IMG/VR virus record: IMGVR_UViG_3300032164_000001
Direction: 5' to 3' (one strand)
DNA: 64,000 nucleotides
Source of the DNA: a virus
Shown: positions 8,440 to 58,212 of the stretch, piece after piece
Layout: each line of letters opens with the position of its first letter
Position numbering within the stretch: the first letter of the stretch is position 1
Translations under genes and position numbers: made by a program
The notes under the pieces: generated by a model
What the model was told of the DNA's origin: nothing
The model's database searches: none
Seen by the model: the letters and a program-made list of their open reading frames with translations, nothing else

Positions 8440-8602
8440 ACAATGCAAAACAAAAACACCATAGGCAGTATCGCAACTCATATCGCCAAACTCGAATCAG
8501 ACAGGCGCTACCTGCTCCTGCTGGTCGTGCTACTTGGCCTTACCGAGTGCGCCACCCTCATCGCCTACTTCATTCGCTAACGCCCGTGCAGAGGCATCGT
8601 AT

Positions 8603-9427
8603 ATGCAACCAAAGGCAGACCTGCTGATCGTCAAGTCCGACTGCATTCGAGCACTGAAGGCACTGGAAGACGACAGGGTGTCATTGACCATTAGTGATCC
8701 ACCCTATCAGTCATTGGAGCGTCATCGCGCTGTCGGCACCACGACAAGACTAAAAGAAAGCAAGGCGTCATCGAATCCGTGGTTCGAGGTCTTCAAGAAC
8801 ACGCGCTACTTCTCTCTGTTCGACGAGCTCTATCGTGTGCATTGCAAGAACACACACTGCTACATCTTCTGCGACTCCGAGACAGAGCACGTGATTCTTA
8901 GTGGTAGAAATCCTTACGACAAGAAACTGGACGACGAGCTGCTGGCCGTCAGGTTCGAAGGTACCGATACGGATCGAGAAGGAGAGCCAAAGGGGCTATG
9001 GCGAGCCTGGCCTCCACTGCTCTGGATCAAGACGAAGCAAGAGGACATAGAGCTCGAGAAAGTGTCCGAGCAACACTTGCAATTGGGTATGGGATATCAT
9101 TGGCGAAGATGCGAAGAACGACTACTCTTCCTGGAGAAGGGGAAGCGCAAGTTGAACAACCTCGGATGGCCCAATGTACTATTCGGAAGCCGGGCAGGGA
9201 AGAACGACCCGCCGACGAAGAAGCCGGATGGCGTCATTACCAGGTTGATTCTGAACTCCTCTTCGGTGGGTGATGTAGTACTCGATCCCTTTGCCGGCTC
9301 GGGTATCGTGGGTCGGGTGGCCCTACGTCATGGTCGACGGGCGATTCTGATTGACATCAACTTAGATAATATGCGATGGAAGGAGTGGCCCGAAGTGCTC
9401 AACAAGTATGTGGAGCAGGTTGGATAG
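8603..9427 (+). CDS. Orphan N4-C/N6-A DNA methyltransferase (beta class)
   Basis: SDPPY catalytic motif precedes VVLDPFAGSG SAM-binding motif; PTKKP. Confidence 0.9.
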   Translation: MQPKADLLIVKSDCIRALKALEDDRVSLTISDPPYQSLERHRAVGTTTRLKESKASSNPWFEVFKNTRYFSLFDELYRVHCKNTHCYIFCDSETEHVILSGRNPYDKKLDDELLAVRFEGTDTDREGEPKGLWRAWPPLLWIKTKQEDIELEKVSEQHLQLGMGYHWRRCEERLLFLEKGKRKLNNLGWPNVLFGSRAGKNDPPTKKPDGVITRLILNSSSVGDVVLDPFAGSGIVGRVALRHGRRAILIDINLDNMRWKEWPEVLNKYVEQVG

Positions 9428-16669: not shown

Positions 16670-16740
16670 TTGACACGCAGGCGCAGTTCGGTCTAAAATA
16701 CGGGCGGCTTGGGTGGGGTAAGGTTATGTATATGGGGGTT
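16670..16740 (+). promoter_or_regulatory. Repeat A copy 2
   Basis: TTGACA-18-TAAAAT-ACGGGCGGCTTGGGTGGGGTAAGGTTATGTATATGGGGG. Confidence 0.85.
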
Positions 16741-16823: not shown

Positions 16824-17432
16824 ATGACCAAACTTGCTGGACGACAGATTCCAAGTCTTGACGCATTGCGTGAATTGTTCAAGCTACTCGGAGAGAACGG
16901 AACCGCTCTTGAGGAGCGAGACCGCAAGCTGCTCATCATCTGGGAGACACGTGCGCGCGAGCGTGTTCTGAACAAGAGCCCGAGCCCGCTGGCTGCACCG
17001 CATCGATGGAAACTTCCGGACGAACGGCAGAGTCTGACGCATCGATTCCAGATGACAGAGGAGAACGGCGGGCCGTTGAAGGCCTATCTGACTTTCGGGA
17101 TGTACGCCGATGGCAAACTGGGGGAGCTGTTCTGCAGCATCGCAAAGGAGGGTTCCTTCGTTTCAGGGATCATGGATGCTCTGACGTGCGTCATCTCCAT
17201 CGGCTTGCAGTACGGTGTGCCCCTTGACATGTTCACACAGCGTTTTCGCTACTCGAAGTTTCAACCGGCGGGCATTGTGCAAGGAGCGCCGGAGGCACTG
17301 AAGGGTCATGGCTTCTTCAGCTCAATCCTGGACTACATCGCGGCGGTCTTGGAACTGCGCTTCCCATCCGGTTTGCTGCATGCCCCCGACGCGCCACATT
17401 TGTTGCCCAAACCGTTGGCTTCTACGACCTGA
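16824..17432 (+). CDS. Stand-alone class II ribonucleotide reductase C-terminal (TSCPD-like) domain
   Basis: RWKLPDERQSLTHRF...YLTFGMYADG.LGELF..IAKEGS...SIGLQYGVPL...KFQPAG...SILDYI. Confidence 0.8.
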   Translation: MTKLAGRQIPSLDALRELFKLLGENGTALEERDRKLLIIWETRARERVLNKSPSPLAAPHRWKLPDERQSLTHRFQMTEENGGPLKAYLTFGMYADGKLGELFCSIAKEGSFVSGIMDALTCVISIGLQYGVPLDMFTQRFRYSKFQPAGIVQGAPEALKGHGFFSSILDYIAAVLELRFPSGLLHAPDAPHLLPKPLASTT

Positions 17433-17620: not shown

Positions 17621-17695
17621 TGCCCGCGGAGGGAGTCGAACCCCCACCCATCTAGCCTCCTTACGGCGTAGTGCTCACCAATGAGCTACGCGGGC
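17621..17695 (-). ncRNA. tRNA-like RNA with a bulged anticodon stem (loop GUAAGGA, nominal anticodon AAG)
   Basis: Acceptor GCCCGCG/CGCGGGC-A; D arm GCTC-ATTGGT-GAGC; T arm GGGGG-TTCGACT-CCCTC; anticodon arm CTA(C)GCC/GGCTAG. Confidence 0.75.
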
Positions 17696-17699
17696 ACAG

Positions 17700-17775
17700 T
17701 GGGGCGGGGAGGAGTTGCACACTCCGACCTCTCTGCCAACGACGACAGAGCGCTCTACTGCTGAGCTACCGTCCC
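17700..17775 (-). ncRNA. tRNA-like RNA with non-canonical anticodon loop and T arm
   Basis: Acceptor GGGACGG/CCGCCCC-A (6/7 paired); D arm GCTC-AGCAGTA-GAGC; CTCTG-10 nt-CAGAG; T arm GGAG(T)G-TGCAACT-CCTCC. Confidence 0.7.
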
Positions 17776-17868: not shown

Positions 17869-18223
17869 CTATCTGAGCAGCCTGAGACTGCTCAGGTACT
17901 TCTTCAACACGCTCCTTGGAGCTGGCTCGAGGCCAAGAGCCATGAGCTCACCCCTGTAGGGCTCATCTGATTCGCGGATTTGCTTGTGCCTGATGCCGGC
18001 AGCCTGAAGCCTGCTGGAGAGCTGCTCGAGCTCGGCACTGCCGTTGACAGCGAGAACCACGGCGTAGGTGCCCTCGGGCAAGAGCCCGGGAGAAGACTCG
18101 CCGGCGGCGTGCACGGCTTGCACCGCAGCCATACCACGGGGCAAGTCATCACGGACTACGACGTAATGGGTTGTCGGATTGACTGGTTCGGTTCTAAGGG
18201 CGAGGTCGGCGTTAAGGGTGCAT
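17869..18223 (-). CDS. Peptidyl-tRNA hydrolase 2 (Pth2/PTRHD1-like); start uncertain, possible +1 frameshift
   Basis: HYVVVRDDLPRG.AAVQAVHA...VVLAV...EL..L...L...GI.H..IRE...GELMALGLEP.PR...KKYLSSLRLL. Confidence 0.8.
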
Positions 18224-18413
18224 GCCTGACTTCCTGGTTGATGAGATACTCTAGGGTAAGCACGCTGAGTTGCTCTGTCAAGCGGTCGGCGAGCTCTTCT
18301 CTGAACGCAACAATAGCATTGGCGCAACCCCAACACAGGGGCTCGGTCAGGCCGGTTAGATGGCCGGTAGCGGGATGCGATGCTCCCCTACATCTGATGC
18401 ACGGTACGGACAT
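18156..18413 (-). CDS. Small Cys/His zinc-finger-like protein
   Basis: CIRC...H...H...CWGC; a TTGACA at 18471-18466 lies upstream on the - strand. Confidence 0.5.
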   Translation of the reverse strand: MSVPCIRCRGASHPATGHLTGLTEPLCWGCANAIVAFREELADRLTEQLSVLTLEYLINQEVRHAPLTPTSPLEPNQSIRQPITS

Positions 18414-19604: not shown

Positions 19605-19676
19605 TTGACAGGGTAACGGGAATGTACTAAAATACGGGCGGCTTGGGTGGGGTAAGGTTATTGTATGTAGGGTTTT
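19605..19676 (+). promoter_or_regulatory. Repeat A copy 3
   Basis: TTGACA-17-TAAAAT plus the G-rich leader. Confidence 0.85.
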
Positions 19677-19907
19677 CTGCTTGCCCATCGTCGGAGAAGG
19701 GACGTCCATGAAGACGGTGACGATCAGCCTCACAGCGGGCGCTCTTGATGAGCTCCAGAGCTGGCTCCTCATCAAGCAGGTTGCCGGGCACAACGTTGGC
19801 CGTGACTACGACCTGGCGGTTCAAGTGCTGGGGGCCAAGGACGGCGGGAGGGTGGAACTGGCCGGGCGGGATGAGAATCACATGCACAAAAAAGTAGCAT
19901 CTAGTTC

Positions 19908-19936
19908 TTGACAGCAGACTCACTCTTTGCTAAAGT
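19908..19936 (+). promoter_or_regulatory. Promoter for the tRNA-mimic/vWA locus
   Basis: TTGACA-17-TAAAGT, about 40 nt upstream of RNA1. A second extended -10 (TGaTATAAT, 20186-20194) precedes RNA2. Confidence 0.65.
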
Positions 19937-19974
19937 GGTCACTGTTTGCTGGCTGTACCCGAAAAACTGAATAC

Positions 19975-20175
19975 GCCCCGATAGCCTAACGGTAAAGGCA
20001 ATTGTAACTTTCCGCTTGTGCACTCGGGTCAGCACATGAGCCGCATGAGCCCGTGCAGAGGCGTCGTATTTGCAACATGGCTGGGCACATGCTGTCGCCA
20101 GTTGCAGGCTGATCCAATGGCTACAAGCCTACAAGTCGAGACAATCGATTGGGGGTTCGAATCCCTCTCGGGGCG
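19975..20175 (+). ncRNA. RNA1: tRNA scaffold with a 135-nt structured insert replacing the anticodon loop
   Basis: GCCCCGA/TCGGGGC acceptor; GCCT-AACGGTAA-AGGC D arm; ATTGT(20001)/ACAAT(20141) stem; GGGGG-TTCGAAT-CCCTC T arm. Confidence 0.8.
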
Positions 20176-20214
20176 CCTAAAGGTATGATATAATCGCAGT
20201 ATTTCGTAAAATCT

Positions 20215-20350
20215 GGAGCGGTAGCCAAAATGGAAAAGGCACTGGTCAAAGGAACCAGCAAACAGAGCAGCTTCACTACTCGCATCGGATCTCCACCGAC
20301 GCAATGGGTGCAAGCCTACAAGTATGAAGGTTCGAATCCTTCCCGCTCCA
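20215..20350 (+). ncRNA. RNA2: tRNA scaffold with a ~67-nt structured variable region; loop CAAAGGA lacks U33
   Basis: GGAGCGG/CCGCTCC-A; GCC...GGC D arm; CTGGT/ACCAG; GAAGG-TTCGAAT-CCTTC. Confidence 0.8.
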
Positions 20351-20400
20351 CTTGGGTCTTCTCGGTTTCCTCGGTCAGGCCTTACTGGGAGGACCCATCA

Positions 20401-20548
20401 AAGTCTTGAGCAACGTGTAATAGGGAGAAGCAGACAAGTCAATAGCTCAACGGTAGAGCGCAAGACTAATAATCTTGATGTTATCGGTTCAAATCCGATG
20501 TGACGTAGCAAAAAACAGCTTTTCTCACTCGCGCGTTGCTCAAGACTT
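20401..20548 (+). ncRNA. RNA3: Y-RNA (YrlA)-like topology, a long terminal duplex enclosing a tRNA-like domain
   Basis: 20401-20431 pairs with 20518-20548 (18 bp + 4x4 loop + 9 bp). Inside: D arm TAGCTCAACGGTAGAGC, CAAGA-CTAATAA-TCTTG, ATCGG-TTCAAAT-CCGAT, and only a ~4-bp acceptor remnant. Confidence 0.8.
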
Positions 20549-20564
20549 CTTTCATAGGCTCTTG

Positions 20565-20607
20565 AAATGTCACTCGGTCCTTTGTTGGGCCAATAGCCAT
20601 TTGGAGG
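20565..20607 (+). promoter_or_regulatory. 5'-leader hairpin carrying the ACUC/AAUA internal loop, directly abutting the RBS of the vWA gene
   Basis: AAATG-TC-ACTC-GGTCC-TTTGTT-GGGCC-AATA-GC-CATTT-GGAGG; ATG at 20615. Confidence 0.7.
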
Positions 20608-20614
20608 CCGTTAG

Positions 20615-22495
20615 ATGCAATCCATCGAGGCGCTCGGTCCAGCCGAGCGCATCATCGAAGCAATCACCAAGTACACTGATCACTGTCAGCATAATCGTCC
20701 AGGAACCATCGTTCCTGACGCAAGACAGCTTGTTGGCGTGCGCTGGGAGCAGGCCATCTGGTGCAAGGAGGGAGAGGAGAAGGTCGTCTACCGTGTGACG
20801 AAGACCGGGAAGAAGCAGACAAAGGCACGCATCGGTGTACTGGAAGCTGACGGGATGGTGAAGGATGCTGGAGTGGAGGTTGCCCGATGGCGAGAGCCAG
20901 GGCTGTTCCCTGAGGTTGTGGTGCACCTGTACCGGCAAGTGGCAGAGGTCTGGAAGCTCGACAACGAGTTCGCTGCCAGGTGGGCCTCGTGGGCCTTCGA
21001 GCACGAAGAGAACAGGGACCTGAAGATCCTGCTGGCCGCGTTCCTGCTGGTGCAGAATCGCTTCGGGGAGAAAGTTCCAGACTCGACACTGGCTGACGAG
21101 GACTACCGAACTGTTGGTGAGGCCATGTGCCTGCTCCGTCGGAAGACGGGCACCTTCAATCCGAAGATGCTCCTGCGTATCGGCGAGGTGCTGGAGCTGC
21201 CAGGTGTGATTGCAGTCAACCGTGAGCTCGGATTTGGACAGACAGGACGAAGGGCGGTGACCGGCCGGTACCGTGGCACGGTGGAGAAGTGGCTCCGATA
21301 CTACGAGAGCAACCCGGCCGTGCTCGAGATGTTGGTCAAGGCGGGCTTCCGTCGGTCCATCATGCAACTGTGTCGTGTCGTTGGCTACAAGCCAGAGACC
21401 GATGCATTCTTTGCCAAGCTGCGCTGGAAGCAGATTCAGGCGAAGGATGGCCGGCGAGGCATGGCGATCGGAAGTACGCTGACGGCGGCGGAGTCGTGGA
21501 AGGAACTTGATGAAGCGGAGATCTGCAAGCGCATCGTTTCTTCCGGTCTTGGCTGGAAGCGCATCGTGGGCATGCTGCCCTTCGGCGTTACTCCAGCCAT
21601 CATGGCCGCCGCAATCGAGGGGGAGACCCTGAGCGACGCGGACCTCGTCATTCTCACACCAACACTGGAGGAGCTCGGCCTGCTCTCCGTACCGGAGATA
21701 ACGGCACGCTGGAAGAGCGCAACGGAGCGAGCGGAGAACCAACGGGCGGCCCACATTGCACGTAACGTAAAGTCGGAGGCGGTGAAGGAACAGCTGCAGG
21801 TTGCAGTCGAGAAGGCTGTACAGAAGGCCGTCGAAGAGGTGACTCGTGACCTGCGAGTGTATGTTATTGTTGATAAATCCGGTTCGATGCGAGGAGCGAT
21901 CGAGCTGGCGAAGGAGTACCTGGCGAAGATGGTGGTGGCTTTCCCCCTGGACCGGCTGCACGTCTGTGTCTTCAACACCGTCGGGGTGGAAGTACAGATT
22001 CGTGTTCCAACAGCGGCTGGAGTATCTCAGGCATTCCGTGGGCACACGGCCGGCGGAGGTACGAGTTACGCTGCAGGGGCGTGGTGCCTCTTGCGGGACC
22101 ACAAGCCAAGGGAAGGCGAGGATGCACTGTTGATCTTCGTCGGAGACCAGGAGGACAACGGGGTCGAGCAGCTCGTGCAAGTGGTGAAGGGGTCAGGTGT
22201 AGCACCAGTGGCCTTCGGCATGCTACACGTGGCAAGTGCACCGGGAATGCAGCATGGAGGCTGGTACGGCTCGCCGGATGTTGTGGAACGTGCGGCGCAG
22301 GCCCTTGCCATCCCCTGTTTCAAGATAGCGGAGGAGATCTTCTCCGACGCGTACGCAGTGCCACGGACACTACGCAACCTGATTGCATCCACTCCGGTCA
22401 CGCATCCGACAATGCGCAAGACGGCGCCAAAGCGCAAGTCGCTCATCGAACAAATCTTGTCGACGCCACTTCTACAGCGTCCAGTATGGGCGTAG
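20615..22495 (+). CDS. vWA-domain protein with a large helical, basic N-terminal region (TROVE/Ro60-like architecture)
   Basis: MIDAS VIVDKSGSM, GGGTS, IFVGD in the C-terminal ~220 aa. The N-terminal ~400 aa look helical and Arg/Lys/Trp-rich. The Ro-like call is inferred from architecture and RNA neighbours. Confidence 0.7.
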   Translation: MQSIEALGPAERIIEAITKYTDHCQHNRPGTIVPDARQLVGVRWEQAIWCKEGEEKVVYRVTKTGKKQTKARIGVLEADGMVKDAGVEVARWREPGLFPEVVVHLYRQVAEVWKLDNEFAARWASWAFEHEENRDLKILLAAFLLVQNRFGEKVPDSTLADEDYRTVGEAMCLLRRKTGTFNPKMLLRIGEVLELPGVIAVNRELGFGQTGRRAVTGRYRGTVEKWLRYYESNPAVLEMLVKAGFRRSIMQLCRVVGYKPETDAFFAKLRWKQIQAKDGRRGMAIGSTLTAAESWKELDEAEICKRIVSSGLGWKRIVGMLPFGVTPAIMAAAIEGETLSDADLVILTPTLEELGLLSVPEITARWKSATERAENQRAAHIARNVKSEAVKEQLQVAVEKAVQKAVEEVTRDLRVYVIVDKSGSMRGAIELAKEYLAKMVVAFPLDRLHVCVFNTVGVEVQIRVPTAAGVSQAFRGHTAGGGTSYAAGAWCLLRDHKPREGEDALLIFVGDQEDNGVEQLVQVVKGSGVAPVAFGMLHVASAPGMQHGGWYGSPDVVERAAQALAIPCFKIAEEIFSDAYAVPRTLRNLIASTPVTHPTMRKTAPKRKSLIEQILSTPLLQRPVWA

Positions 22496-22498
22496 CAA

Positions 22499-23068
22499 AT
22501 GATTTACAGTCTTATCTTCACACATTGGAGCTATCTCAAATATGTGCTATGGCACAAATACTACGTAGGAGTTGAGTGCTTCAAAGAAGGACTGTGGTGG
22601 CGGGGGTTGAAGCATGACTGGCACAAGTTTCTCCCTTCAGAGTTTCTGCCCTACTCGAACTTCTTCTACGGTCCCAATGGAAAGAACAACACAATCCGGG
22701 ACAAGACTGGTTATTACAAACCTACCGATACAGGCAACAAAGCGTTTGATCGTGCTTGGTTCTGCCATCAGAAAAGAGCGGACCACCATTGGCAGTGGTG
22801 GGTCATGCCCGAAGATACCCAAGGTGTTAAGATTCTTCCCATGAGCGCACCAGCCATTGTGGAAATGATGAGTGATTGGTGCGGGGCTAGCAGAGCCCAG
22901 GGTCACGGTGGTTGGACTAGCCCCTCAGGAGTTTTTGCTTGGTATGCTACCAATGGACACAAGATGCAACTGCATCCGCAGACACGAGCTGTGATAGAAA
23001 TGGCGCTGCGCACAAAAGGAGCTGATAGTTCCAACACCAGATGGGGGTCGGAGAAGAAGCAGGATTGA
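22499..23068 (+). CDS. HD-like (DUF5662-type) protein
   Basis: HKYYV...HDWHKF...AWFCHQKR.DHHWQWW...EMMSDW.GA. Confidence 0.7.
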   Translation: MIYSLIFTHWSYLKYVLWHKYYVGVECFKEGLWWRGLKHDWHKFLPSEFLPYSNFFYGPNGKNNTIRDKTGYYKPTDTGNKAFDRAWFCHQKRADHHWQWWVMPEDTQGVKILPMSAPAIVEMMSDWCGASRAQGHGGWTSPSGVFAWYATNGHKMQLHPQTRAVIEMALRTKGADSSNTRWGSEKKQD

Positions 23069-23301
23069 ATTGACCAATATGCCTACTACAGAAGCCTATC
23101 GACAGGGTTGGGAGAGGATTTTTGGTCCTGATCCCTGCCCATGGTGTGGCAACTGTGATGACGCTGATGATGAACCCTTGAGCCAGCACAAGTTGATGAC
23201 ACCAGCAGAGGAACTAACTTGTTCTCACTGTGGTCGTTGCATGAAAGAGAGTTGCGAACAACTTGTACAACGTCCTGTTTGGACTTAAGAAAGGCTAAAT
23301 C

Positions 23302-23712
23302 ATGACACGCCCATTCGTACAGAGCATGGACATGAAGATCGAGGCCAGCAAGAAAGAATTGTTGGTCATCTTGAAGAACAATCGGGAGACTCACAAGAAG
23401 ATTCTCTCTGAGGCCAGAGAAGGCTACATCAAGGCCGCAAGGGCTGCAATCGAGCACAAGCTGGACGAGCTCAGAACTGGCGAGTGTGTGCGTCTCACCT
23501 TTCACTTGAGCCCGCCACAGGACTACACTGCAACCTACGACACGGTCATCAAGATGGCTGAGCTGCACCAGGCCGACACCATCACGCTGAGCGCCAATGA
23601 GGTTAGATGCCTCATGATGGACGAGTGGGATTGGATGGATCAATTCCTGGTGATGAACAAAGCGTACTCGGGTCTCGCCAATGCGTATGCAGACGCCAAG
23701 GGCATCGTATGA
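23302..23712 (+). CDS. Conserved helical phage protein
   Basis: L..L..NRETH...EA.EGY...P.DY...YD.VI.M...MDEWDW. Confidence 0.6.
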   Translation: MTRPFVQSMDMKIEASKKELLVILKNNRETHKKILSEAREGYIKAARAAIEHKLDELRTGECVRLTFHLSPPQDYTATYDTVIKMAELHQADTITLSANEVRCLMMDEWDWMDQFLVMNKAYSGLANAYADAKGIV

Positions 23713-24424
23713 GCACTATGCATCAGAGCGTGCAACATGCCTATCGGGTGATAAGACTGTTGACAAATACAGCGGTGCGCGAAGGGCGCATCCATCCGAA
23801 AGATGCCGATAGTTTCTTCGCCAGCGAATTGAAGGATTGGCTTGTTGGCTCACATCTCCCTATTCCAGGATGGCTGGGCGGCATTGGCGGACCAGTGGCA
23901 GAGAAGATCAAGACAGAAGGTATACGGGTTGCGGCGGGAGTGATCGGAAAGAGAGGACTGTCTGGTGGACAGATTGCCTTCATCGTGATCGGCGCGGTGG
24001 TACTCGTGTCAGCCATAGCCATAGCCTGGCATTGGTGGAAAAATGACCATGCAGGCATCGTATCCGCAACAGAGAGAGCAAGAGTGTGAACAGGAAGAAG
24101 AAAGTAATCAAGCGGCTCAAGGTGATACGACCGAAAGCAGCAAGACGGACAAAGGTCGATGAGACATCTGTCGACGAGACGCCCATGGAAAAGGGGCATT
24201 TCTTGCGCTGGTTGGAACAAGAGCAAGACGCCGGGCGCATTGGCAGGTGCGGCTGTCCCGAGAAGTTCAAGGGCATCGATTGCCCCGCATGTCATGGAAC
24301 TGGCATTGCCAGAATCCATGAGGCCTGGCCGTTGATCGTCGAGTACGTGACGACAATGACCCGGCCCGTGACAATCTCGGACGTCATGTTGCAAATCATG
24401 TGAGTAAAGGCAACGGGAGCTGCA

Positions 24425-26095
24425 ATGACGATTCACGAAAAGGTGCTACGCTTCGAACTATTGGCCTCGAGTTCTACTGAACTGAATTGGCTCGACGCCG
24501 CCTTCGTTCGCGCCGCCCTGGAAGTCAGAGCAGGTGCCTGCGACGATGATGAAGATCTGACTCTGCGACTGATTGAGACTCCGGTGGCTCAGCCCGTCTT
24601 CAAAGCCGTCGCTCATCCAGGTGTGACGCTGCGGGGCCTGATGCGAGATACAACACCCCACGACTTTGCGGCAATGATCTCCAACACGGGTTACCGCCTG
24701 TCCAAGGGATACATCGAGAGCATTCTTGCTGGAAGTAGTGACATCACCCCCTTGGCCGCCGAATGCATCGCGGAGGTCTTTGGCCCCTCCAAGGAATACT
24801 GGCTGCAACAGCAGGCGGACTACAATGCCTGGCGGCTGCACCACGACGCAGAATCCGTAGAAGCCCGAAGGTTCGATGCAGACATGGATCAGAACAAAGA
24901 AATCTGTGCGAATGCCGAACCAGCCAGTCCGAACCAGCAGTGTGACGCCAACCAGCCGATCTGGAGAGTAGTAGCAGAGGCCTTGTGGGGCATCCTTGAC
25001 GACATCAGCACGGCCGGCGACATCGCAAAGGGGGACGATGCGATGTACCGCGCGATGGTCGAGGACCTGCAGGCCAAGAAGAGTAACTACCTGGTCTCCT
25101 ACGACGGGCAGACGCTCGTTCGCACTGGCGGTGAACCGCCCCCGAATCCGCCCGTGGAAATGAGTACGCCAAGCAAGCCGAATGTCCTTCATCCGGGTGA
25201 GACACTGAAGATGATACTGAGGGAACGCAACCTCTCCATCGACGACTTGATCTCTTTCATCCGCAAGCTCTATCCGACCTGCGTCGACTTCGGTCCTGAT
25301 CGCATCGCTCTCCTTCTCCAGGGCGAGGCAGACATCTCCATCGACATTGCCTCGATGTTGCAAGGGGCTCTCGGTCCTACGCCATCGGCCTCATTGTGGC
25401 TGCAATGGCAAGCAGACTATAGCGCCCGTGCAGAGGCAGTGTATCTACAACAAGGAACGCCCGTGCAGAGGCGTCCAGTCGCGTCTTTGACGGAACAGCT
25501 GCAGGGTCGAGTCGCATGGCTCGAGCGTCAGATGGACACATGGGCAGAGCGCATCCGCAACCTCGAGAAGACGCTGGACGCCTGGCAAGAGACATCCTAC
25601 ACAGATCCCTGCAAGGAGTGCCAGGATTGCGGTTGCCTCTTTCTCCCCAGTGGAAACGAGAGAGATGCCACATTCAAGTGCCGACGCTGTACATCTCGGG
25701 TTGATCCTGCCGCACCGCCCAAGTGGGCGATCATGTCGGAGCGAGACGAGGCGCCTGACAAGGCACCTGAGCCGAATGCCCCTTCGCCGTGGGCACAAAT
25801 CCCCGATGCTCTGCTGGAGACACTGGCCGAGTACGCGCACACGGCCTGGTCGGGCTGGATGCAATACATACTCCAGCAGTGCCTCGGCGGTGAGGTGGCC
25901 GTGATAGATATGCGCCAGCCCAGTCCTGGCATCCCATTGTCGGGTGTGGCGGTCATTCCCTCCGAATTGGTTGAACGATGGAGCAGGCAGATGCACACGA
26001 CCTACGCCGATCTGCCGGAGGAGGAGAAGAAGAGCGACAGACTGGAGGCGCGGCGGATACTCGTCGGTCTTCGCACAGCGAAGGCGGTACCGTGA
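24425..26095 (+). CDS. Mosaic protein with two HigA-like HTH domains, a Zn ribbon and a C-terminal YADLPEEEK helical domain
   Basis: HPGVTL...ITP..A...FGPSKEYWLQQQADY; HPGETL...IS.DIA...SLWLQWQADY; CQDC...CRRC. Confidence 0.7.
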   Translation: MTIHEKVLRFELLASSSTELNWLDAAFVRAALEVRAGACDDDEDLTLRLIETPVAQPVFKAVAHPGVTLRGLMRDTTPHDFAAMISNTGYRLSKGYIESILAGSSDITPLAAECIAEVFGPSKEYWLQQQADYNAWRLHHDAESVEARRFDADMDQNKEICANAEPASPNQQCDANQPIWRVVAEALWGILDDISTAGDIAKGDDAMYRAMVEDLQAKKSNYLVSYDGQTLVRTGGEPPPNPPVEMSTPSKPNVLHPGETLKMILRERNLSIDDLISFIRKLYPTCVDFGPDRIALLLQGEADISIDIASMLQGALGPTPSASLWLQWQADYSARAEAVYLQQGTPVQRRPVASLTEQLQGRVAWLERQMDTWAERIRNLEKTLDAWQETSYTDPCKECQDCGCLFLPSGNERDATFKCRRCTSRVDPAAPPKWAIMSERDEAPDKAPEPNAPSPWAQIPDALLETLAEYAHTAWSGWMQYILQQCLGGEVAVIDMRQPSPGIPLSGVAVIPSELVERWSRQMHTTYADLPEEEKKSDRLEARRILVGLRTAKAVP

Positions 26096-26781
26096 GCAAC
26101 AAGTGCGACGAAGACATCTACGAGAACGGCCGAACGGTGCTGGTTATCGGCGATGAGTTCTCCGTGAACACGATCGAGGCCTTCGTGCAGAAAATCGCAC
26201 GTCGGTCGGGTCAGAAGGTCGACTGGCACTTCATCGCCGGCCGGGCCGCCCTCAGAGCCAAGGCCAACACGCAGGGCCTGCACAAGGTGGATGAGGCCAT
26301 CTACGGCTGTCCCGACGAGGTGGCCGCCTGGTGGAAAGCAGAGCTCGAGAAGAGTGGACGCGTCGCATACAAGGACTGCATCATGCGTTGCACGGGTGGG
26401 CTCTTGCTAGAACTCATGACCACCAAGAAGCCCAGTGAGGCGACCGGCACGGTCGACTACTGCAGTCCGCTCTATGGTTACCATCCGGGTGGTGACAACC
26501 ACTGGGCACGCGACGAACTGGGACTGGAAGCGTTCAACATGGCGAATAAGGTTGTCGTGGGCGCTTTGCGCCAGCACGTCCCAGTCGCCATCAGCTGGGT
26601 CTGCCCTGGATGCCAGACGCGAAACAAGTGCGACTACTCCGATGAGCACTACTTCGCAGACCCAAAGATCAATGCAGTCTTCGCGATCAACTTATGCTGT
26701 CCAGAGTGCAGCAAGGAAGTGGAGATCTTCGTGAAGCTACACTTGACACTCAGCCTCCATGCGAGATTGGAGAATGGCTAG
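26092..26781 (+). CDS. Hypothetical protein with a C-terminal Zn ribbon
   Basis: GQKVDWHFIAGRA motif; CPGC...CPEC. Confidence 0.55.
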   Translation: MSNKCDEDIYENGRTVLVIGDEFSVNTIEAFVQKIARRSGQKVDWHFIAGRAALRAKANTQGLHKVDEAIYGCPDEVAAWWKAELEKSGRVAYKDCIMRCTGGLLLELMTTKKPSEATGTVDYCSPLYGYHPGGDNHWARDELGLEAFNMANKVVVGALRQHVPVAISWVCPGCQTRNKCDYSDEHYFADPKINAVFAINLCCPECSKEVEIFVKLHLTLSLHARLENG

Positions 26782-27729
26782 ATGGTCTGGGAGAACCTGC
26801 TTCAGCACGCGGCGTCAGGCTACTTCGCATTCCCCTGGCTCGGCGGGCGAAAGATACACGGCAATGGGCGCACCTGGCGTGTCGTCAACAAGTTGCCTCC
26901 GGAGTTCGGATGGTGTCTGTTCGAGCTCAAGGGGGGTCGAACGGCGAAGTACTGCGAACAGGCAGAGCCATTGGCGAACTGGGAAAACGAGCATCACACA
27001 ACCCGTGGGTACATTGTCGGGGATAGGTTCATCCCGGAGAGGGCTCGAGTAGATCCCGATCCAGAGAGACTGGCAGAACAGACAATCGCAGTGTATCTGG
27101 TGGAGCGAGGACTGGATCGCTTCGCACCGTGCTTGGTGGCTTTCGAAGAGGAGAATAGAGCAATCTTCGTTCGTCAGCTATTCGACTCCGTAGTCGAGGA
27201 AAAGGCGCGTGAGGCCTTCATCGATCGAAGGGTTGACATTGCCTCCATCCGCGATGTTCCACCTGCTCTGGACTTGGCTTTTCGCTTCGCGAGTCGACAG
27301 AGGGAACTCGTGGAGCGACGTAGATTAGAGCTCGAGAAGCAACGACTGGAAGAAGAACGTCGAGAGGCTGCACTGAAGAGCATCGGCACGGGGCTCGGAC
27401 GACGGCAGCTGGCGACGACAGATTTTGCTGCAGCGGCTCGAGCTGCTCTGGCCGTGTCCGGGGCAGAGTTTCTGGATGCGCGCGAGGCTCACGGGCGAAA
27501 TGAGATGATCGTGCAGTACCGTTTCATGAATCGTCGCTTCGAGTGCGTTGTAGATCGACTGACACTGAGATTGACGGACAGCGGTGTATGCCTACAGGAC
27601 CATCGTGGAGTGAAAGGGGACACCAGGTTCACACTGGAGTCAATCCCAGGAGTGATCTCCGAGGCGATTCGAGAGAACAAACTGCACATCTACCGCCATG
27701 TCGACGACGAGGAAGAAGATTACTGGTAG
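26782..27729 (+). CDS. Hypothetical protein; C-terminal domain is a candidate divergent E2-like conjugase
   Basis: TDSGVCL (Cys codon 27589-27591) resembles the E2 D-x-G-x-(I/V)-C-L catalytic motif; first gene of the JAB-Ubl-E1 cluster. Confidence 0.45.
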   Translation: MVWENLLQHAASGYFAFPWLGGRKIHGNGRTWRVVNKLPPEFGWCLFELKGGRTAKYCEQAEPLANWENEHHTTRGYIVGDRFIPERARVDPDPERLAEQTIAVYLVERGLDRFAPCLVAFEEENRAIFVRQLFDSVVEEKAREAFIDRRVDIASIRDVPPALDLAFRFASRQRELVERRRLELEKQRLEEERREAALKSIGTGLGRRQLATTDFAAAARAALAVSGAEFLDAREAHGRNEMIVQYRFMNRRFECVVDRLTLRLTDSGVCLQDHRGVKGDTRFTLESIPGVISEAIRENKLHIYRHVDDEEEDYW

Positions 27730-27858
27730 AAATCAAGAGTGCGCACAACAACGAGATTGATTGCTGATGTCACGAGAACACAAAGTGTCGGGCTGTGACG
27801 ATTGTCCAGCTCTTTGGCCCGTGCAGAGGCATCGTATTTGCAACTGGAAGGCAAGAAG

Positions 27859-28260
27859 ATGGTAGAAGTGGCTCTGGTGTTCAACAGGCATGGGGTCGGT
27901 CTACAATGGCACAGGCCGAATGGGAAATGCTCGCATGGTGGCATTGGAGATGATCGCGGTCTGTGGGAATTCTTGTGGGCAAACCGGAAAGAAGTTGGTG
28001 GTGTGGCGCACACACATCCATGGGATGGACCGGCTGGACCATCAGGAACGGATGTAACGACATTCTCGGCGATAGAGAGAGGCTTAGGGGTCAAACTGGT
28101 GTGGCCAATCGTGACATTGACGGAGATCGGCTACTTCGAATGGGTTGGTCCGGACAAGCACGATTATGGCGATATGCGACTGCGCAGGTTCCGTTTGGAT
28201 CCAGCGGACATCGCAGAACTGCGAGAGCTTTCATTGAAAGGAGATAACGGAAATGGCTGA
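27859..28260 (+). CDS. JAB/MPN+ metallo-isopeptidase
   Basis: N-terminal Glu (VEVALV) and JAMM motif AHTHP...GPSGTD. Confidence 0.85.
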   Translation: MVEVALVFNRHGVGLQWHRPNGKCSHGGIGDDRGLWEFLWANRKEVGGVAHTHPWDGPAGPSGTDVTTFSAIERGLGVKLVWPIVTLTEIGYFEWVGPDKHDYGDMRLRRFRLDPADIAELRELSLKGDNGNG

Positions 28261-28561
28261 TATGGTTGTTTACGATGTGCCAATGGCCAGACTCAATATC
28301 ACATGGTCCGGGCAGAACGGAGACAATCCGGACTTGGTCCCGTGGGATTCATCGGATGCAGACATCCGGCGCATCGCAACGGAGGCCGTGTGCACTGGGT
28401 ACGTCGCTGGCATCCCGGCTGATCCGAATGTGGACTTCACAGACTTCGTCGTCGACCGCTTCCCGGCGACGGACGAACTGCCGTATAGATGCTTCGTCAG
28501 ATCGAAAACCCCCTTTGGAGGTTTTACGCGCTTGACTAGAATCGTTGCGCTAGTGCGCTAG
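28253..28561 (+). CDS. Ubiquitin-like (beta-grasp) protein precursor
   Basis: 102 aa; KTPFGG (GG at 28517-28522) followed by a 12-aa tail; lies between JAB and E1. Confidence 0.65.
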   Translation: MADMVVYDVPMARLNITWSGQNGDNPDLVPWDSSDADIRRIATEAVCTGYVAGIPADPNVDFTDFVVDRFPATDELPYRCFVRSKTPFGGFTRLTRIVALVR

Positions 28562-28577: not shown

Positions 28578-29366
28578 ATGCAAGACGTACAAGACGTACT
28601 CACACAACTATTGAGAAACAACACACAGCTTTCGAATGCCAAGAAGGCACACCTGATTGAGACGATGGCCGTGTATCGGATCGTGCGAGAAGTAATCGGG
28701 GAATCCACAGCCAGTGCCGTGCTGACACTGACGGCAGCGATAGCAAATCTTCATGCCACATTACAGCTCGGACTGACTTCCCCGTCTCACCTGTCCCAGA
28801 ACGGCGCCCCACCTTGGGCGCCTACACCAATGCCCACAGCGCAGTCGCCTGTACAGGCTCCTGCACCAATGCCCGTGGCACTTGCCGCCACGGTGCCAGA
28901 GAGCAAGAAGCCGAAGAAAAAAGTAGCCCCCCTCGGCAAAGGCTATACGCTGATGGTAACCAAGACTGAACTTCGCACATCCGGTCAAGAGAATAAGTAC
29001 ATGAATACAACCTTTGTGATAACGCGCGCTCCTGATCAGATAGACGAACCGGGACAGACGCCGGAGAAGTTCGAAGAATTCAGACAATCCGTCGGGATGG
29101 CAATCGCTGAACAGCGACTCATGCTGGAGGGGAACGGGACGCCCTTGACAGTGGAATTCTTGATCGCATGCGGCATTGACATACCCCCTGACCTCATCAC
29201 ATTGGACATAAGCAAGCCCATCTACAGGTTGGTGACGGCAGAAGTCAAGTTCTATGACAAATTCAACAATGAAGAACACGAAAAACTTCGGAACTACCGA
29301 CCTGTTGACTGCTCACAGGAGCGCTTGATCGAACAAGTTCTCAGTTCTGGCCCGGGGTCAATCTGA
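28578..29366 (+). CDS. Hypothetical protein: helical N-domain, Pro/Lys linker, possible DUF669-like OB domain
   Basis: KGYTLMVTKTELRTS...KYMNTTFVI; its stop overlaps the E1 start (TGATG). Confidence 0.45.
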   Translation: MQDVQDVLTQLLRNNTQLSNAKKAHLIETMAVYRIVREVIGESTASAVLTLTAAIANLHATLQLGLTSPSHLSQNGAPPWAPTPMPTAQSPVQAPAPMPVALAATVPESKKPKKKVAPLGKGYTLMVTKTELRTSGQENKYMNTTFVITRAPDQIDEPGQTPEKFEEFRQSVGMAIAEQRLMLEGNGTPLTVEFLIACGIDIPPDLITLDISKPIYRLVTAEVKFYDKFNNEEHEKLRNYRPVDCSQERLIEQVLSSGPGSI

Positions 29367-29962
29367 TGCAAAAGGAGCGGCCCTGGCCAAAGGTTGCCGT
29401 TGTCGGAATAGGCGCCCTGGGTTCGCATGTCGTCTTGCTTGCTCGGAATTGGAAGGCGAAGCTGCGTGTCATCGACGGCGACAAGGTCGAGCAGAAGAAT
29501 GTGCTGGCACAGATGCATTCAGAGCTAGGGAAGGGGAGGAACAAGGCTGCGGCACTTAAGGTGTTGATGCAGGGCATGTTCCGCCTGGAGATAGAAGCCT
29601 TCCCCGTGAAGGTCAACGAATGGAACTTGAAGGGGCTGCTCGGTGAGATGGCGCTGATCATCGACTGCACCGACAACGTGGCGGCTCGAAACTGCATCAA
29701 GTCGTTTGCACTGAAGGATGAGATTCCTTGCCTGCATGTGTGCTTATCGGCTGATGGAATGCTGGCCCGAGTGGTGTGGGCTCAACAGAACTTCAAGGCT
29801 GACAAAGAGAGTGGAGACGGAGCGACGTGTGAGGACGGGGCGAATGTGTGGTTCCACGCGATGGCGGCTGCACTCGTCGTGCGACTGGCCCAGCAGTTCC
29901 TGCTCGATGGTCGAATGGAAAGCTGGATGCTTGCGCCAGCAGCTCTCCTCAGGATAGCATAG
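29366..29962 (+). CDS. ThiF/MoeB/E1-like adenylyltransferase
   Basis: VAVVGIGALGS, IDGDKVEQKN..AQ, GRNKA, IIDCTDNVAAR; candidate catalytic Cys in ATCED. Confidence 0.9.
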   Translation: MQKERPWPKVAVVGIGALGSHVVLLARNWKAKLRVIDGDKVEQKNVLAQMHSELGKGRNKAAALKVLMQGMFRLEIEAFPVKVNEWNLKGLLGEMALIIDCTDNVAARNCIKSFALKDEIPCLHVCLSADGMLARVVWAQQNFKADKESGDGATCEDGANVWFHAMAAALVVRLAQQFLLDGRMESWMLAPAALLRIA

Positions 29963-30237: not shown

Positions 30238-30310
30238 TTGACAGATCAGCCTAATTCGATCTAAAATACGGGCGGCTTGGGTGGGGTAAGGTTATTGTAT
30301 GTAGGGTTTT
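30238..30310 (+). promoter_or_regulatory. Repeat A copy 4
   Basis: TTGACA-18-TAAAAT plus a leader identical to copy 3; faces - strand genes. Confidence 0.85.
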
Positions 30311-57171: not shown

Positions 57172-58212
57172 ATGGCAAACAACCTGAATGACCTGACGCG
57201 CCAGGCGTTGAGGCTGCACGCTGGCCTTGGACTCGTGACAGATCCAAGCCAGTACTCGGACAACTTCAGTCTGTTCTGGGCCGAGCTGATTGACAAGCGA
57301 CCGGACGTGCTGGCCGCAAAGCCGACGCTGACGCTGCGCTGCTGCATACACATGCAAGCGTGCTGGCTGGCCTGCGGCATGCCAGTCTTTCAGATCGACG
57401 AGAACCTGTTGGCCGGCCTGCTGCTGACAGACGCAGGCAGCGTGACAGCGGAAGAGTGGCACATGCCCTATGGCACATTCGCCGTGTTGTTGCCATCAGG
57501 TTTCTGGCAGATGGAAAATCTGTGCACTCCAGGAGCCATGAGCAATGCTTGGTGCGTCATCTTTCATCGGTATCACACACTGACCAAGGCTATCTACCAG
57601 GGAGATGCAAGACTGCAGACGTACTTGCAGGCGTACATCACGAATGAAGACGGCTCCGAGATATGGCAACGCTCGTTGCCACCGACGAGTGGCGCATTGG
57701 AACCCTGGCTGCTCGAGACACGATATGGAGTAGCCGAGGGCGATGTCGTCGAGCCGACTTCGGAGTACGAGGCCACGTTGTTGCAGGCATGCAAACAATT
57801 GGTCGTGAACCTGAGCCTGTTGATAGCCGAACAAGGTCCGGGCAAGCGCGTGGTCACTCCTGTTCGCAACAAGGCCAAGCTGCGCCGACTGAAGAAGAAC
57901 GCATCATCTAATGCATCACGTGGTCCATCTGCTCTGGGGCCGCAGGCCCCAGAGGTATGGCAGCTTGGGAAGGTAGCATTGTTGTCAGCAGAGTTGATCG
58001 CCGCCGCGAAGGCATGTGGAAGAGCGAAGGAGCGGACGGAGTGGAAGATCTCGAAGAGGTTCACCGTGCGAGGCCATTGGCGTGAGCAGGCATACGGAGA
58101 GGGCGGGCTGTTGAGGCGAAGGAAATGGATCGCACCATACTGGAAGGGCGCCGGAGTGAAGCTAGCGCATCTCTACACCATGGATGTAGACAAAGGAGAG
58201 GGGAAACCATGA
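57172..58212 (+). CDS. Conserved phage protein with a C-terminal VRGHWR.Q.YG...WI.PYWKG motif
   Basis: Motif recognised; ATGA overlap with the ATPase gene. Confidence 0.65.
   Translation: MANNLNDLTRQALRLHAGLGLVTDPSQYSDNFSLFWAELIDKRPDVLAAKPTLTLRCCIHMQACWLACGMPVFQIDENLLAGLLLTDAGSVTAEEWHMPYGTFAVLLPSGFWQMENLCTPGAMSNAWCVIFHRYHTLTKAIYQGDARLQTYLQAYITNEDGSEIWQRSLPPTSGALEPWLLETRYGVAEGDVVEPTSEYEATLLQACKQLVVNLSLLIAEQGPGKRVVTPVRNKAKLRRLKKNASSNASRGPSALGPQAPEVWQLGKVALLSAELIAAAKACGRAKERTEWKISKRFTVRGHWREQAYGEGGLLRRRKWIAPYWKGAGVKLAHLYTMDVDKGEGKP

What the first reader, a model, noticed from the sequence alone, without database searches (positions are those of the whole stretch)
19975..22495. Candidate new ribonucleoprotein system: three tRNA-mimic RNAs sharing one putative protein-binding module, upstream of a Ro60/TROVE-like vWA gene
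Seen: the same 4x4 internal loop, 5'-ACUC-3' opposite 5'-AAU(G/A)-3', occurs four times within 600 nt, closed by stems whose sequences differ but still pair (covariation). RNA1: GCTTGTGC-ACTC(20022)-GGGTCAGC...GCTGATCC-AATG(20116)-GCTACAAGC, replacing the anticodon loop. RNA2: GCTTCACT-ACTC(20278)-GC...GC-AATG(20303)-GGTGCAAGC, in the variable arm. RNA3: circularly permuted, with AATA(20419) and ACTC(20527) in the terminal duplex that encloses the tRNA domain. The fourth copy is in the mRNA leader. RNA1-3 also share GCTT...AAGC-NNACAAGT flanks. Established: bacterial Ro60 (TROVE+vWA) genes sit next to YrlA Y RNAs, which join a Ro-binding stem to a tRNA-like module. Inference: this is a divergent Ro-like RNP with a recognition element unlike the Ro60 bulged helix, grafted onto three different positions of the tRNA fold. 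It may tether the protein to tRNA-recognising enzymes or act as a decoy for anticodon nucleases. I know of no described Y RNA with the module in the anticodon or variable arm.
Basis: partly seen in the sequence, partly recalled or inferred. Interest (0 to 1): 0.93.

Follow-up and report, generated by a model that had tools for sequence, protein, structure and literature searches.

The report
Divergent Ro60 with tRNA-shaped partner RNAs
A large phage encodes three tRNA-shaped small RNAs that share one protein-docking arm, next to a very distant relative of the RNA-binding ring protein Ro60 and a ubiquitin-like tagging kit; this undescribed branch of the Ro60/Y-RNA system recurs in dozens of giant phages and myxobacterial genomes.

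Summary
Three tRNA-like RNAs and a leader hairpin share one module, upstream of a 626-aa gene whose model matches Ro60/TROVE best (Foldseek ranks 1-12) although Pfam TROVE misses it.

AAUR is genome-specific (5/144 modules). The family-wide module is a covarying helix, invariant CUC before a G-started hairpin, and an ACA(A/C)G tail. It is not unlike Y RNA: linear tRNA-like RNAs beside canonical Ro60 show the same layout, with CUUG and CGA where this family has CUCG and AAC. Anticodon-position and acceptor-side grafts have precedents (YrlA, Yrn1); the variable-arm graft, commonest here, does not.

The module lies near this gene in whole phage genomes and was not found near 74 canonical Ro60 genes. 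A CUCG hairpin abuts the ribosome-binding site in 35/120 homologues versus 19/207 controls, suggesting autorepression. An OB-fold/JAB/Ubl/E1 cassette follows the gene (104/105 loci for the first gene).

Verdict: a new variant of the Ro60-Y RNA particle. Binding and expression are untested. The scan has found this system before in other genomes.

The parts
19908..19936 (+). sigma70-type promoter with extended -10, predicted to drive RNA1-3 and the gene
   Evidence: consensus scan, 10/12 plus TG; function inferred
19975..20178 (+). RNA1: tRNA-like (7-bp acceptor, D arm, T arm); module at the anticodon position (helix P1 20014-17/20125-28, CUC 20023-25, P2 carrying a branched insert of about 75 nt, tail 20129-35), then a 6-bp hairpin
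20215..20350 (+). RNA2: tRNA-like with non-canonical anticodon loop; module in the variable region (P1 20270-73/20312-15, CUC 20279-81, tail 20316-22)
   Evidence: Rfam tRNA 43.5 bits; model R1 E 1.5e-4
20353..20397 (+). spacer hairpin between RNA2 and RNA3, possibly a processing signal
   Evidence: z -3.96; role not tested
20401..20548 (+). RNA3: 18-bp terminal duplex plus module closing a truncated acceptor stem; intact D, anticodon (AAU) and T arms; Yrn1-like layout; called tRNA-Ile by ARAGORN
20557..20610 (+). leader half-module: CUCG (20573-76) plus hairpin 20576-91, inside a stem that pairs the Shine-Dalgarno (20603-07); no ACAAG tail; predicted autorepression operator
20615..22495 (+). 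626-aa divergent Ro60-like protein: N-terminal beta domain (about 25-95, no known match), TROVE-like helical region (about 98-410), vWA with invariant MIDAS (about 411-597)
26782..27729 (+). 315-aa partner: two OB-like beta domains, long helix, small domain with invariant Cys270; follows the Ro-like gene in 104/105 loci
27841..28260 (+). JAB/MPN peptidase with intact metal motif
   Evidence: Pfam Prok-JAB weak, E 0.0024; motif in 77/83 homologues
28253..28561 (+). small putative ubiquitin-like protein; conserved C-terminal motif ending in Gly, here followed by a 13-residue extension
   Evidence: 20/80 homologues end exactly at that Gly, most others a few residues later; fold not tested
29366..29962 (+). 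ThiF/E1-like adenylating enzyme with conserved cysteines
   Evidence: Pfam ThiF E 1e-19

Best explanation
This is a divergent Ro60-Y RNA particle with its own RNA handle.

Shown by computation: the protein has the Ro60 helical+vWA architecture. The RNAs carry a covarying two-helix module laid out like the modules beside canonical Ro60, but with CUUG changed to CUCG, the CGA strand changed to an A/C-rich strand, and a new ACA(A/C)G tail. The module goes with this protein subfamily and travels with a four-gene OB/JAB/Ubl/E1 cassette.

Inferred: one transcript is cut into three RNAs (RNase P-type cleavage for RNA1 and RNA2, duplex trimming for RNA3). The protein binds the module on its helical ring and holds out the tRNA-like part. 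Variable-arm RNAs present an intact acceptor end and elbow; RNA3-type RNAs present an intact anticodon arm and elbow. Free protein binds the CUCG hairpin in its own leader and blocks translation, matching protein to RNA (about 0.6).

Most speculative (about 0.3): the tRNA-like part is bait for host tRNA-handling or tRNA-attacking enzymes, which the linked ubiquitin-like cassette then tags or blocks.
For: Foldseek ranks 1-12 are all Ro60/TROVE chains, E 4e-8 to 1.5e-5, 468-561 columns. VIA: 1yvp Z 13.0, 417 aligned, rmsd 8.1, residues 98-593. ESM features of residues 95-412 alone return TROVE and DUF2828 clusters, score 0.87, lead level. MIDAS invariant in 119/119. 144 module hits, all on the gene's strand; 9/10 pairs with compensatory changes, 96% of cells paired; CUC in 144/144. 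In 10 whole virus records, 17 of 20 hits lie within about 7 kb of the gene. No hits in 472 kb around 74 canonical Ro60 genes. Canonical loci carry parallel linear RNAs with CUUG/CGA. Leader hairpin 35/120 vs 19/207, p 5e-6. Cassette linkage 104, 79, 76 and 49 of 105 loci, and 0 of 80 canonical loci within 2.5 kb.
Against: No expression or binding data. Sequence-level similarity to Ro60 is very weak: no Pfam TROVE hit, HHalign probability 5.8%, E 0.0066, TM-scores 0.28-0.40. In that weak alignment the histidine of the Ro60 Y-RNA-binding helix is not kept. Only 54 of 128 loci show module RNAs within 3 kb; several have them further off, but 3 of 10 virus records gave no hit. The 315-aa OB-fold protein is as tightly linked and could be the binder. 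No E2 fold was detected for it.
Confidence: 0.75

Rival explanations
1. The module is the handle for the 315-aa OB-fold protein (or both proteins jointly), and the Ro-like ring binds substrates instead.
For: The 315-aa gene is as tightly linked (104/105) and its best, weak matches are the nucleic-acid-binding OB domains of RNase II/R and Dis3. The Ro60 histidine appears lost. One distant homologue lacking the N-terminal beta domain has RNAs with the ACAAG tail but no CUCG, hinting at two separately read elements.
Against: The module's layout matches the Ro-linked modules at canonical loci, which lack this gene within 2.5 kb. The half-module sits in the leader of the Ro-like gene.
Confidence: 0.12
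2. These are functional tRNA genes and the module is an intron or processing signal removed to give decoding tRNAs.
For: Inserts occur at anticodon, variable and acceptor positions, as archaeal introns and permuted tRNAs do (own knowledge). ARAGORN calls the RNA3 core tRNA-Ile. A few anticodon-position cases would leave a 7-nt loop (L089).
Against: Variable-arm RNAs have canonical anticodon loops in only 38/106 cases versus 278/346 for neighbouring tRNAs, and some lack the arm altogether. RNA3-type acceptor stems have 5 bp or fewer in 33/38. No bulge-helix-bulge geometry. A half-module in an mRNA leader makes no sense for an intron.
Confidence: 0.05
3. The RNP is real, but the Ubl/E1/JAB cassette is a sulfur-relay (ThiS/ThiF-like) system that thiolates tRNAs or the tRNA mimics, with the ring as scaffold, rather than a protein-tagging system.
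For: E1 is ThiF-family. No E2 fold was found. The operon often sits in tRNA arrays.
Against: No thiouridylase or cysteine desulfurase was recognised among the window's neighbouring genes that I scanned. The invariant Cys in the 315-aa protein and the JAB peptidase fit a conjugation relay (PMC11601596 on JAB maturation of Ubl precursors).
Confidence: 0.15
4. Chance similarity or assembly artefact.
For: Four-base motifs are common, and the exact motif is not enriched near homologues.
Against: Covariation in 143 distinct sequences, strand and locus specificity, identical sequence in another contig record.
Confidence: 0.01

Closest known systems
YrlA Y RNAs with Rsr/Ro60 (Chen et al. 2014, PMC4201824; Wang et al. 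2018, 10.1101/312249; Rfam YrlA)
   Same: tRNA-like domain joined to a two-helix handle; encoded beside a Ro ring gene on the same strand; several RNAs per locus; handle at the anticodon position (as in RNA1).
   Different: YrlA has T-acceptor-D order with a closed acceptor loop and a GNCGAA motif. These RNAs have normal tRNA order, mostly an open 7-bp acceptor stem, the handle mostly in the variable region, no CGAA motif, and no Rfam YrlA hit.
Deinococcus Yrn1 (PMC4201824)
   Same: The terminal duplex carries the handle, and the arm between D and T is in the anticodon position, like RNA3.
   Different: RNA3-type RNAs keep a full D arm and mostly canonical 7-nt anticodon loops (26/33), and a different handle sequence.
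Thermus phage phiLo Ro60 with Yrl1/Yrl2 (PMC12135203; PDB 9kop, 9l5y)
   Same: Best structural match; phage-encoded, RNAs directly upstream; recruits a host enzyme (PNPase).
   Different: phiLo RNAs use CGAA and no tRNA-like domain is reported in the passages read. The protein here has an extra N-terminal beta domain and a linked Ubl cassette.
Linear tRNA-like RNAs beside canonical Ro60 in phages and Myxococcota MAGs (seen here; no paper found)
   Same: Open acceptor stem, D and T arms, helix / pyrimidine triplet / G-started hairpin / helix / tail layout.
   Different: CUUG and CGA instead of CUCG and AAC; different tail; handle at the anticodon position in the cases inspected; no Ubl cassette within 2.5 kb.
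Bil and Bub bacterial ubiquitin-like operons (PMC11601596)
   Same: Ubl, JAB peptidase and E1 in one operon.
   Different: Those are host operons (Bil is anti-phage) with recognisable E2s. This cassette is mostly phage-borne, has no detected E2 fold, and is tied to an RNP.

Membership tests
Ro60/Rsr (TROVE+vWA) | HEAT-like helical domain followed by vWA in one chain | tested here: met
   Foldseek ranks 1-12 all Ro60; VIA 1yvp Z 13.0, 417 residues, rmsd 8.1
Ro60/Rsr (TROVE+vWA) | Closed ring with central cavity | tested here: inconclusive
   pTM 0.69, large rmsd to Ro60, coordinates not inspectable
Ro60/Rsr (TROVE+vWA) | vWA MIDAS motif | tested here: met
   D420, S422, S424, T483, D511 invariant in 119/119
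Ro60/Rsr (TROVE+vWA) | Pfam TROVE (PF05731) sequence match | tested here: not met
   no hit at E<=1; HHalign to canonical Ro60 probability 5.8%, E 0.0066
Ro60/Rsr (TROVE+vWA) | Y-RNA-binding helix with conserved His (His187 in Xenopus; own knowledge) | tested here: inconclusive
   the helix aligns in register with Arg and Lys-Pro kept and His replaced, but the alignment is weak
Y RNA (general) | Encoded close to the Ro gene, same strand | tested here: met
Y RNA (general) | Bound by the Ro60 orthologue | not testable with these tools
   no binding assay possible with these tools
Y RNA (general) | Expressed as discrete small RNAs | not testable with these tools
YrlA | GNCGAAN0-1G motif | tested here: not met
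   absent from 19900-20620; A/C-rich strand instead
YrlA | T-acceptor-D arm order; Rfam model hit | tested here: not met
   normal D-anticodon-T order; only tRNA-clan hits
YrlA | tRNA-like elbow (D-loop GG, T loop) | tested here: met
   T loop invariant and D-loop GG in at least 90% of 90 aligned RNAs; both features partly selected by my search
decoding tRNA | Canonical anticodon loop and 7-bp acceptor in the same molecule | tested here: not met
   RNA1 has no anticodon loop, RNA2 has C32-A33, RNA3 acceptor has two mismatches; family counts
Bil/Bub ubiquitin-like conjugation | E1, Ubl, JAB present | tested here: met
   (Ubl by C-terminal motif and context only)
Bil/Bub ubiquitin-like conjugation | E2 (UBC fold) | tested here: inconclusive
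   315-aa protein has an invariant Cys but no match above Z 4.7

The most novel reading that the evidence does not exclude
An RNA-baited protein-tagging machine. A Ro-like ring displays a panel of tRNA mimics, some with an intact acceptor end and some with an intact anticodon arm of varied sequence. These capture host tRNA-targeting defence enzymes (anticodon nucleases, acceptor-modifying toxins), and a phage-encoded E1/Cys-relay/Ubl/JAB cascade modifies the captured enzyme. This would be RNA-guided ubiquitin-like conjugation in prokaryotes.
Probability: 0.2. Interest if true: 0.93.

Novelty: new variant of a known kind. Interest (0 to 1): 0.68.

Why it matters
What the tRNA-like domain of bacterial Y RNAs does is an open question (PMC4201824, 10.1101/312249). 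This system offers natural variation on it: one handle grafted at three or four positions of the tRNA fold, a Ro protein whose neighbouring RNA motif has diverged with it, and a fixed enzymatic partner set that names candidate effectors. It adds a large RNA family missing from Rfam, often mis-called as tRNA, and a protein family of more than 2,000 clusters missed by Pfam TROVE. The CUCG versus CGA contrast makes Ro60 specificity directly testable by swap experiments. The leader hairpin predicts translational autoregulation by a Ro protein, which I found described in no paper I searched.

Tried and rejected
Exact ACUC/AAUR motif as the family signature: rejected. An extra helix pairing the 5' linker with the ACAAG tail: no covariation (best z 2.2 of 120 column pairs). 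Rfam YrlA: no hit. Sequence search of PDB with the protein or its profile: only weak vWA hits. PHROGs: no family for the Ro-like, 315-aa, JAB or Ubl proteins. N-terminal beta domain: no usable match. E2 fold for the 315-aa protein: not found, which does not exclude it. Model search in whole bacterial genomes was too insensitive (it missed a known hit), and a loose pattern was swamped by chance. Virus Rctr197k has the gene but no module hit. Burroughs and Aravind 2016 and Sim et al. 2020 were not held, so a mention of this family there is not excluded. Caveat: the ACAAG tail was part of my seed pattern and CUC part of the later descriptor, so their invariance in the final alignment is partly selected. 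CUC was unselected and invariant in the first 90-sequence alignment.
Full report
CONTEXT. The window has many short unannotated ORFs and repeated sigma70 promoters, and no host genome is held. The protein occurs on contigs up to 180 kb and its Atlas clusters are 82-93% viral. It is very probably a large phage. The same 626-aa protein is on 18 contigs, and the 715 nt upstream are identical in one that could be read.

OBSERVATION. The four ACUC/AAUR pairs and the shared flanks are at the stated coordinates. RNA1 (19975-20178), RNA2 (20215-20350) and RNA3 (20401-20548) fold as described, with helix probabilities 0.83-1.0 in the context of the whole transcript. A hairpin after the module forms instead, so the module most likely replaces the anticodon arm. 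True closure by an anticodon stem is predicted in at least one other genome (L089). In RNA3 the arms run D-anticodon-T; the module halves enclose a truncated acceptor stem. An extended -10 promoter lies at 19908-19936.

PROTEIN. Pfam sees only a weak vWA. More than 2,000 homologous clusters exist. The AlphaFold model (pLDDT 86) has an N-terminal beta domain, a long helical region and a vWA. Foldseek's first twelve hits are all Ro60/TROVE structures over 468-561 columns. VIA aligns 417 residues to Xenopus Ro60 (Z 13.0, rmsd 8.1) and 421 to Deinococcus Rsr (Z 11.3, rmsd 6.4). The helical part alone retrieves TROVE and DUF2828 clusters by language-model features, at lead level. The MIDAS is invariant and many Arg/Lys are conserved. 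Profile comparison with canonical Ro60 is collinear over residues 206-530 but weak (probability 5.8%, E 0.0066), and puts no histidine at the Ro60 RNA-binding position. So the protein has Ro60 architecture but falls outside the Pfam family. Ring closure is not shown.

RNA FAMILY. I fetched 180 loci from metagenomes, huge-phage contigs and mostly Myxococcota genomes. The exact ACUC/AAUR motif is not enriched, but arrays of long tRNA-like RNAs are common upstream. In 90 variable-arm RNAs the module is: helix P1 (4 bp well paired, 4 more partly), CUC 9-10 nt after its first G, a hairpin P2 starting with G-C, a variable A/C-rich strand, and a tail NYACA(A/C)G. A covariance model found 144 copies, all on the gene's strand. 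Nine of ten pairs show compensatory changes, 96% of cells pair, and slid controls give 34-50% (this alignment was fitted to the structure). AAUR follows P2 in 5/144. Topologies: 133 copies directly before a T arm (variable region, some with no anticodon arm), 56 in the RNA3 form, and a handful at the anticodon position. The two main classes are complementary. Variable-arm RNAs have full acceptor stems (a selection criterion) but canonical anticodon loops in only 38/106, against 278/346 for neighbouring tRNAs. RNA3-type RNAs have canonical loops in 26/33 with many different anticodons, but acceptor stems of 5 bp or fewer in 33/38. Neither class looks like a decoding tRNA.

SPECIFICITY. 54 of 128 loci show module RNAs within 3 kb. 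Four loci extended further all had hits on the gene's strand. In ten whole virus records, 17 of 20 hits lie within about 7 kb of the gene, two about 19 kb away, one elsewhere; three records gave none. Around 74 canonical phage Ro60 genes the model found nothing.

RELATION TO Y RNA. The module is not foreign to Y RNAs. A Myxococcota MAG with canonical Ro60 has three linear 125-nt tRNA-like RNAs upstream with the same layout: GCY-started helix, (C/U)UC just before a G-started hairpin, then CGA on the returning strand. My scan of 80 canonical phage loci returned 21 long tRNA-like candidates in 14 loci; most show by eye CUUG before the hairpin and CGA or a close variant after it. This family has replaced that strand and fixed the opposite one. 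From my own knowledge, the 3' strand of vertebrate Y RNAs also has CUUG there. YrlA carries its handle on the anticodon stem (10.1101/312249). Yrn1 has the anticodon-like arm between D and T, as RNA3 does (PMC4201824). I found no variable-arm graft in those papers or among the canonical loci I inspected.

LEADER. The fourth copy lacks the tail and its stem pairs the Shine-Dalgarno (four of five bases at P about 1). A CUCG hairpin ends 10-32 nt before the start codon in 35/120 homologues versus 19/207 downstream genes (p 5e-6). Many leaders keep only ACUCG plus the hairpin, which marks this as the minimal site. It also points to the adjacent gene's product as the binder (inference).

CASSETTE. 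A 315-aa gene follows in 104/105 loci, often within 25 nt; JAB, Ubl and ThiF homologues follow in 79, 76 and 49 within the 3 kb fetched. None was found within 2.5 kb of 80 canonical Ro60 genes. In this window 4.3 kb of other genes intervene. The 315-aa model has two OB-like domains, a long helix and a small domain with an invariant Cys, with no clear E2 match. The Ubl's conserved motif ends in Gly, often with an extension that a JAB peptidase could remove (compare PMC11601596). I took this lead from earlier scan notes and tested it here.

MECHANISM. Shown: architecture, covariation, linkage, specificity. Inferred: processing of one transcript into three RNAs; binding of the module by the Ro-like protein (0.75); autorepression (0.6); functional coupling of the RNP to the Ubl cassette (0.6). 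The bait-and-tag model against host tRNA-targeting enzymes is my preferred purpose but only about 0.2-0.3; sulfur relay is the main alternative.

LITERATURE. Nine searches found YrlA/Yrn1, phiLo Ro60 and passing mentions of TROVE in jumbo and Asgard viruses, but no description of this family, its RNAs or a Ro-Ubl operon. GenBank virus Rctr197k has the gene annotated only as similar to a conserved hypothetical protein. Two key reviews were not held. This scan has reported the same system from several other genomes.

VERDICT. Real and undescribed in what I could search, but a variant of the Ro60-Y RNA theme rather than a new kind of particle. Interest 0.68.

Noticed in passing
window 16696-16725, 19630-19659, 30264-30293 (+): Three identical copies of a 30-nt or longer element; at least the second and third follow a near-consensus sigma70 promoter. 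Likely a shared early-gene promoter/leader or operator.
   Followed up: partly
window 17621-17775 (-) and 17869-18336 (-): Two tRNA-like elements with abnormal anticodon arms directly downstream of a peptidyl-tRNA hydrolase PTH2 gene, on the strand opposite the Ro-like operon.
   Followed up: no
L186:3267-3902 (-), L187:3267-3395, L203, L209, L229, L232, L240, L245, L252, L253, L271, L272: Linear, open-acceptor tRNA-like RNAs of about 118-170 nt with a CUUG/CGA module at the anticodon position beside canonical Ro60 genes; those scanned hit Rfam tRNA, not YrlA. Apparently a further undescribed Y RNA form.
   Followed up: partly
L188:3040-4000: A distant homologue lacking the N-terminal beta domain has upstream tRNA-like RNAs with the ACAAG tail but no CUCG hairpin; hints that tail and CUCG are read by different domains. 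One locus only.
   Followed up: partly
window 20034-20107: RNA1's second helix carries a branched insert of about 75 nt, much longer than in most family members.
   Followed up: no
window 22499-26781: The cassette is interrupted by 4.3 kb of genes not conserved at other loci, including DUF5662; DUF5662 also follows a distant homologue.
   Followed up: no
window 58125-61112 (+): AAA ATPase with an intein and LAGLIDADG domain; one Ro-like homologue also carries an intein (P0077).
   Followed up: no
window 16824-17432 (+), 8534-9427 (+): Stand-alone TSCPD-domain protein and a DNA methyltransferase.
   Followed up: no
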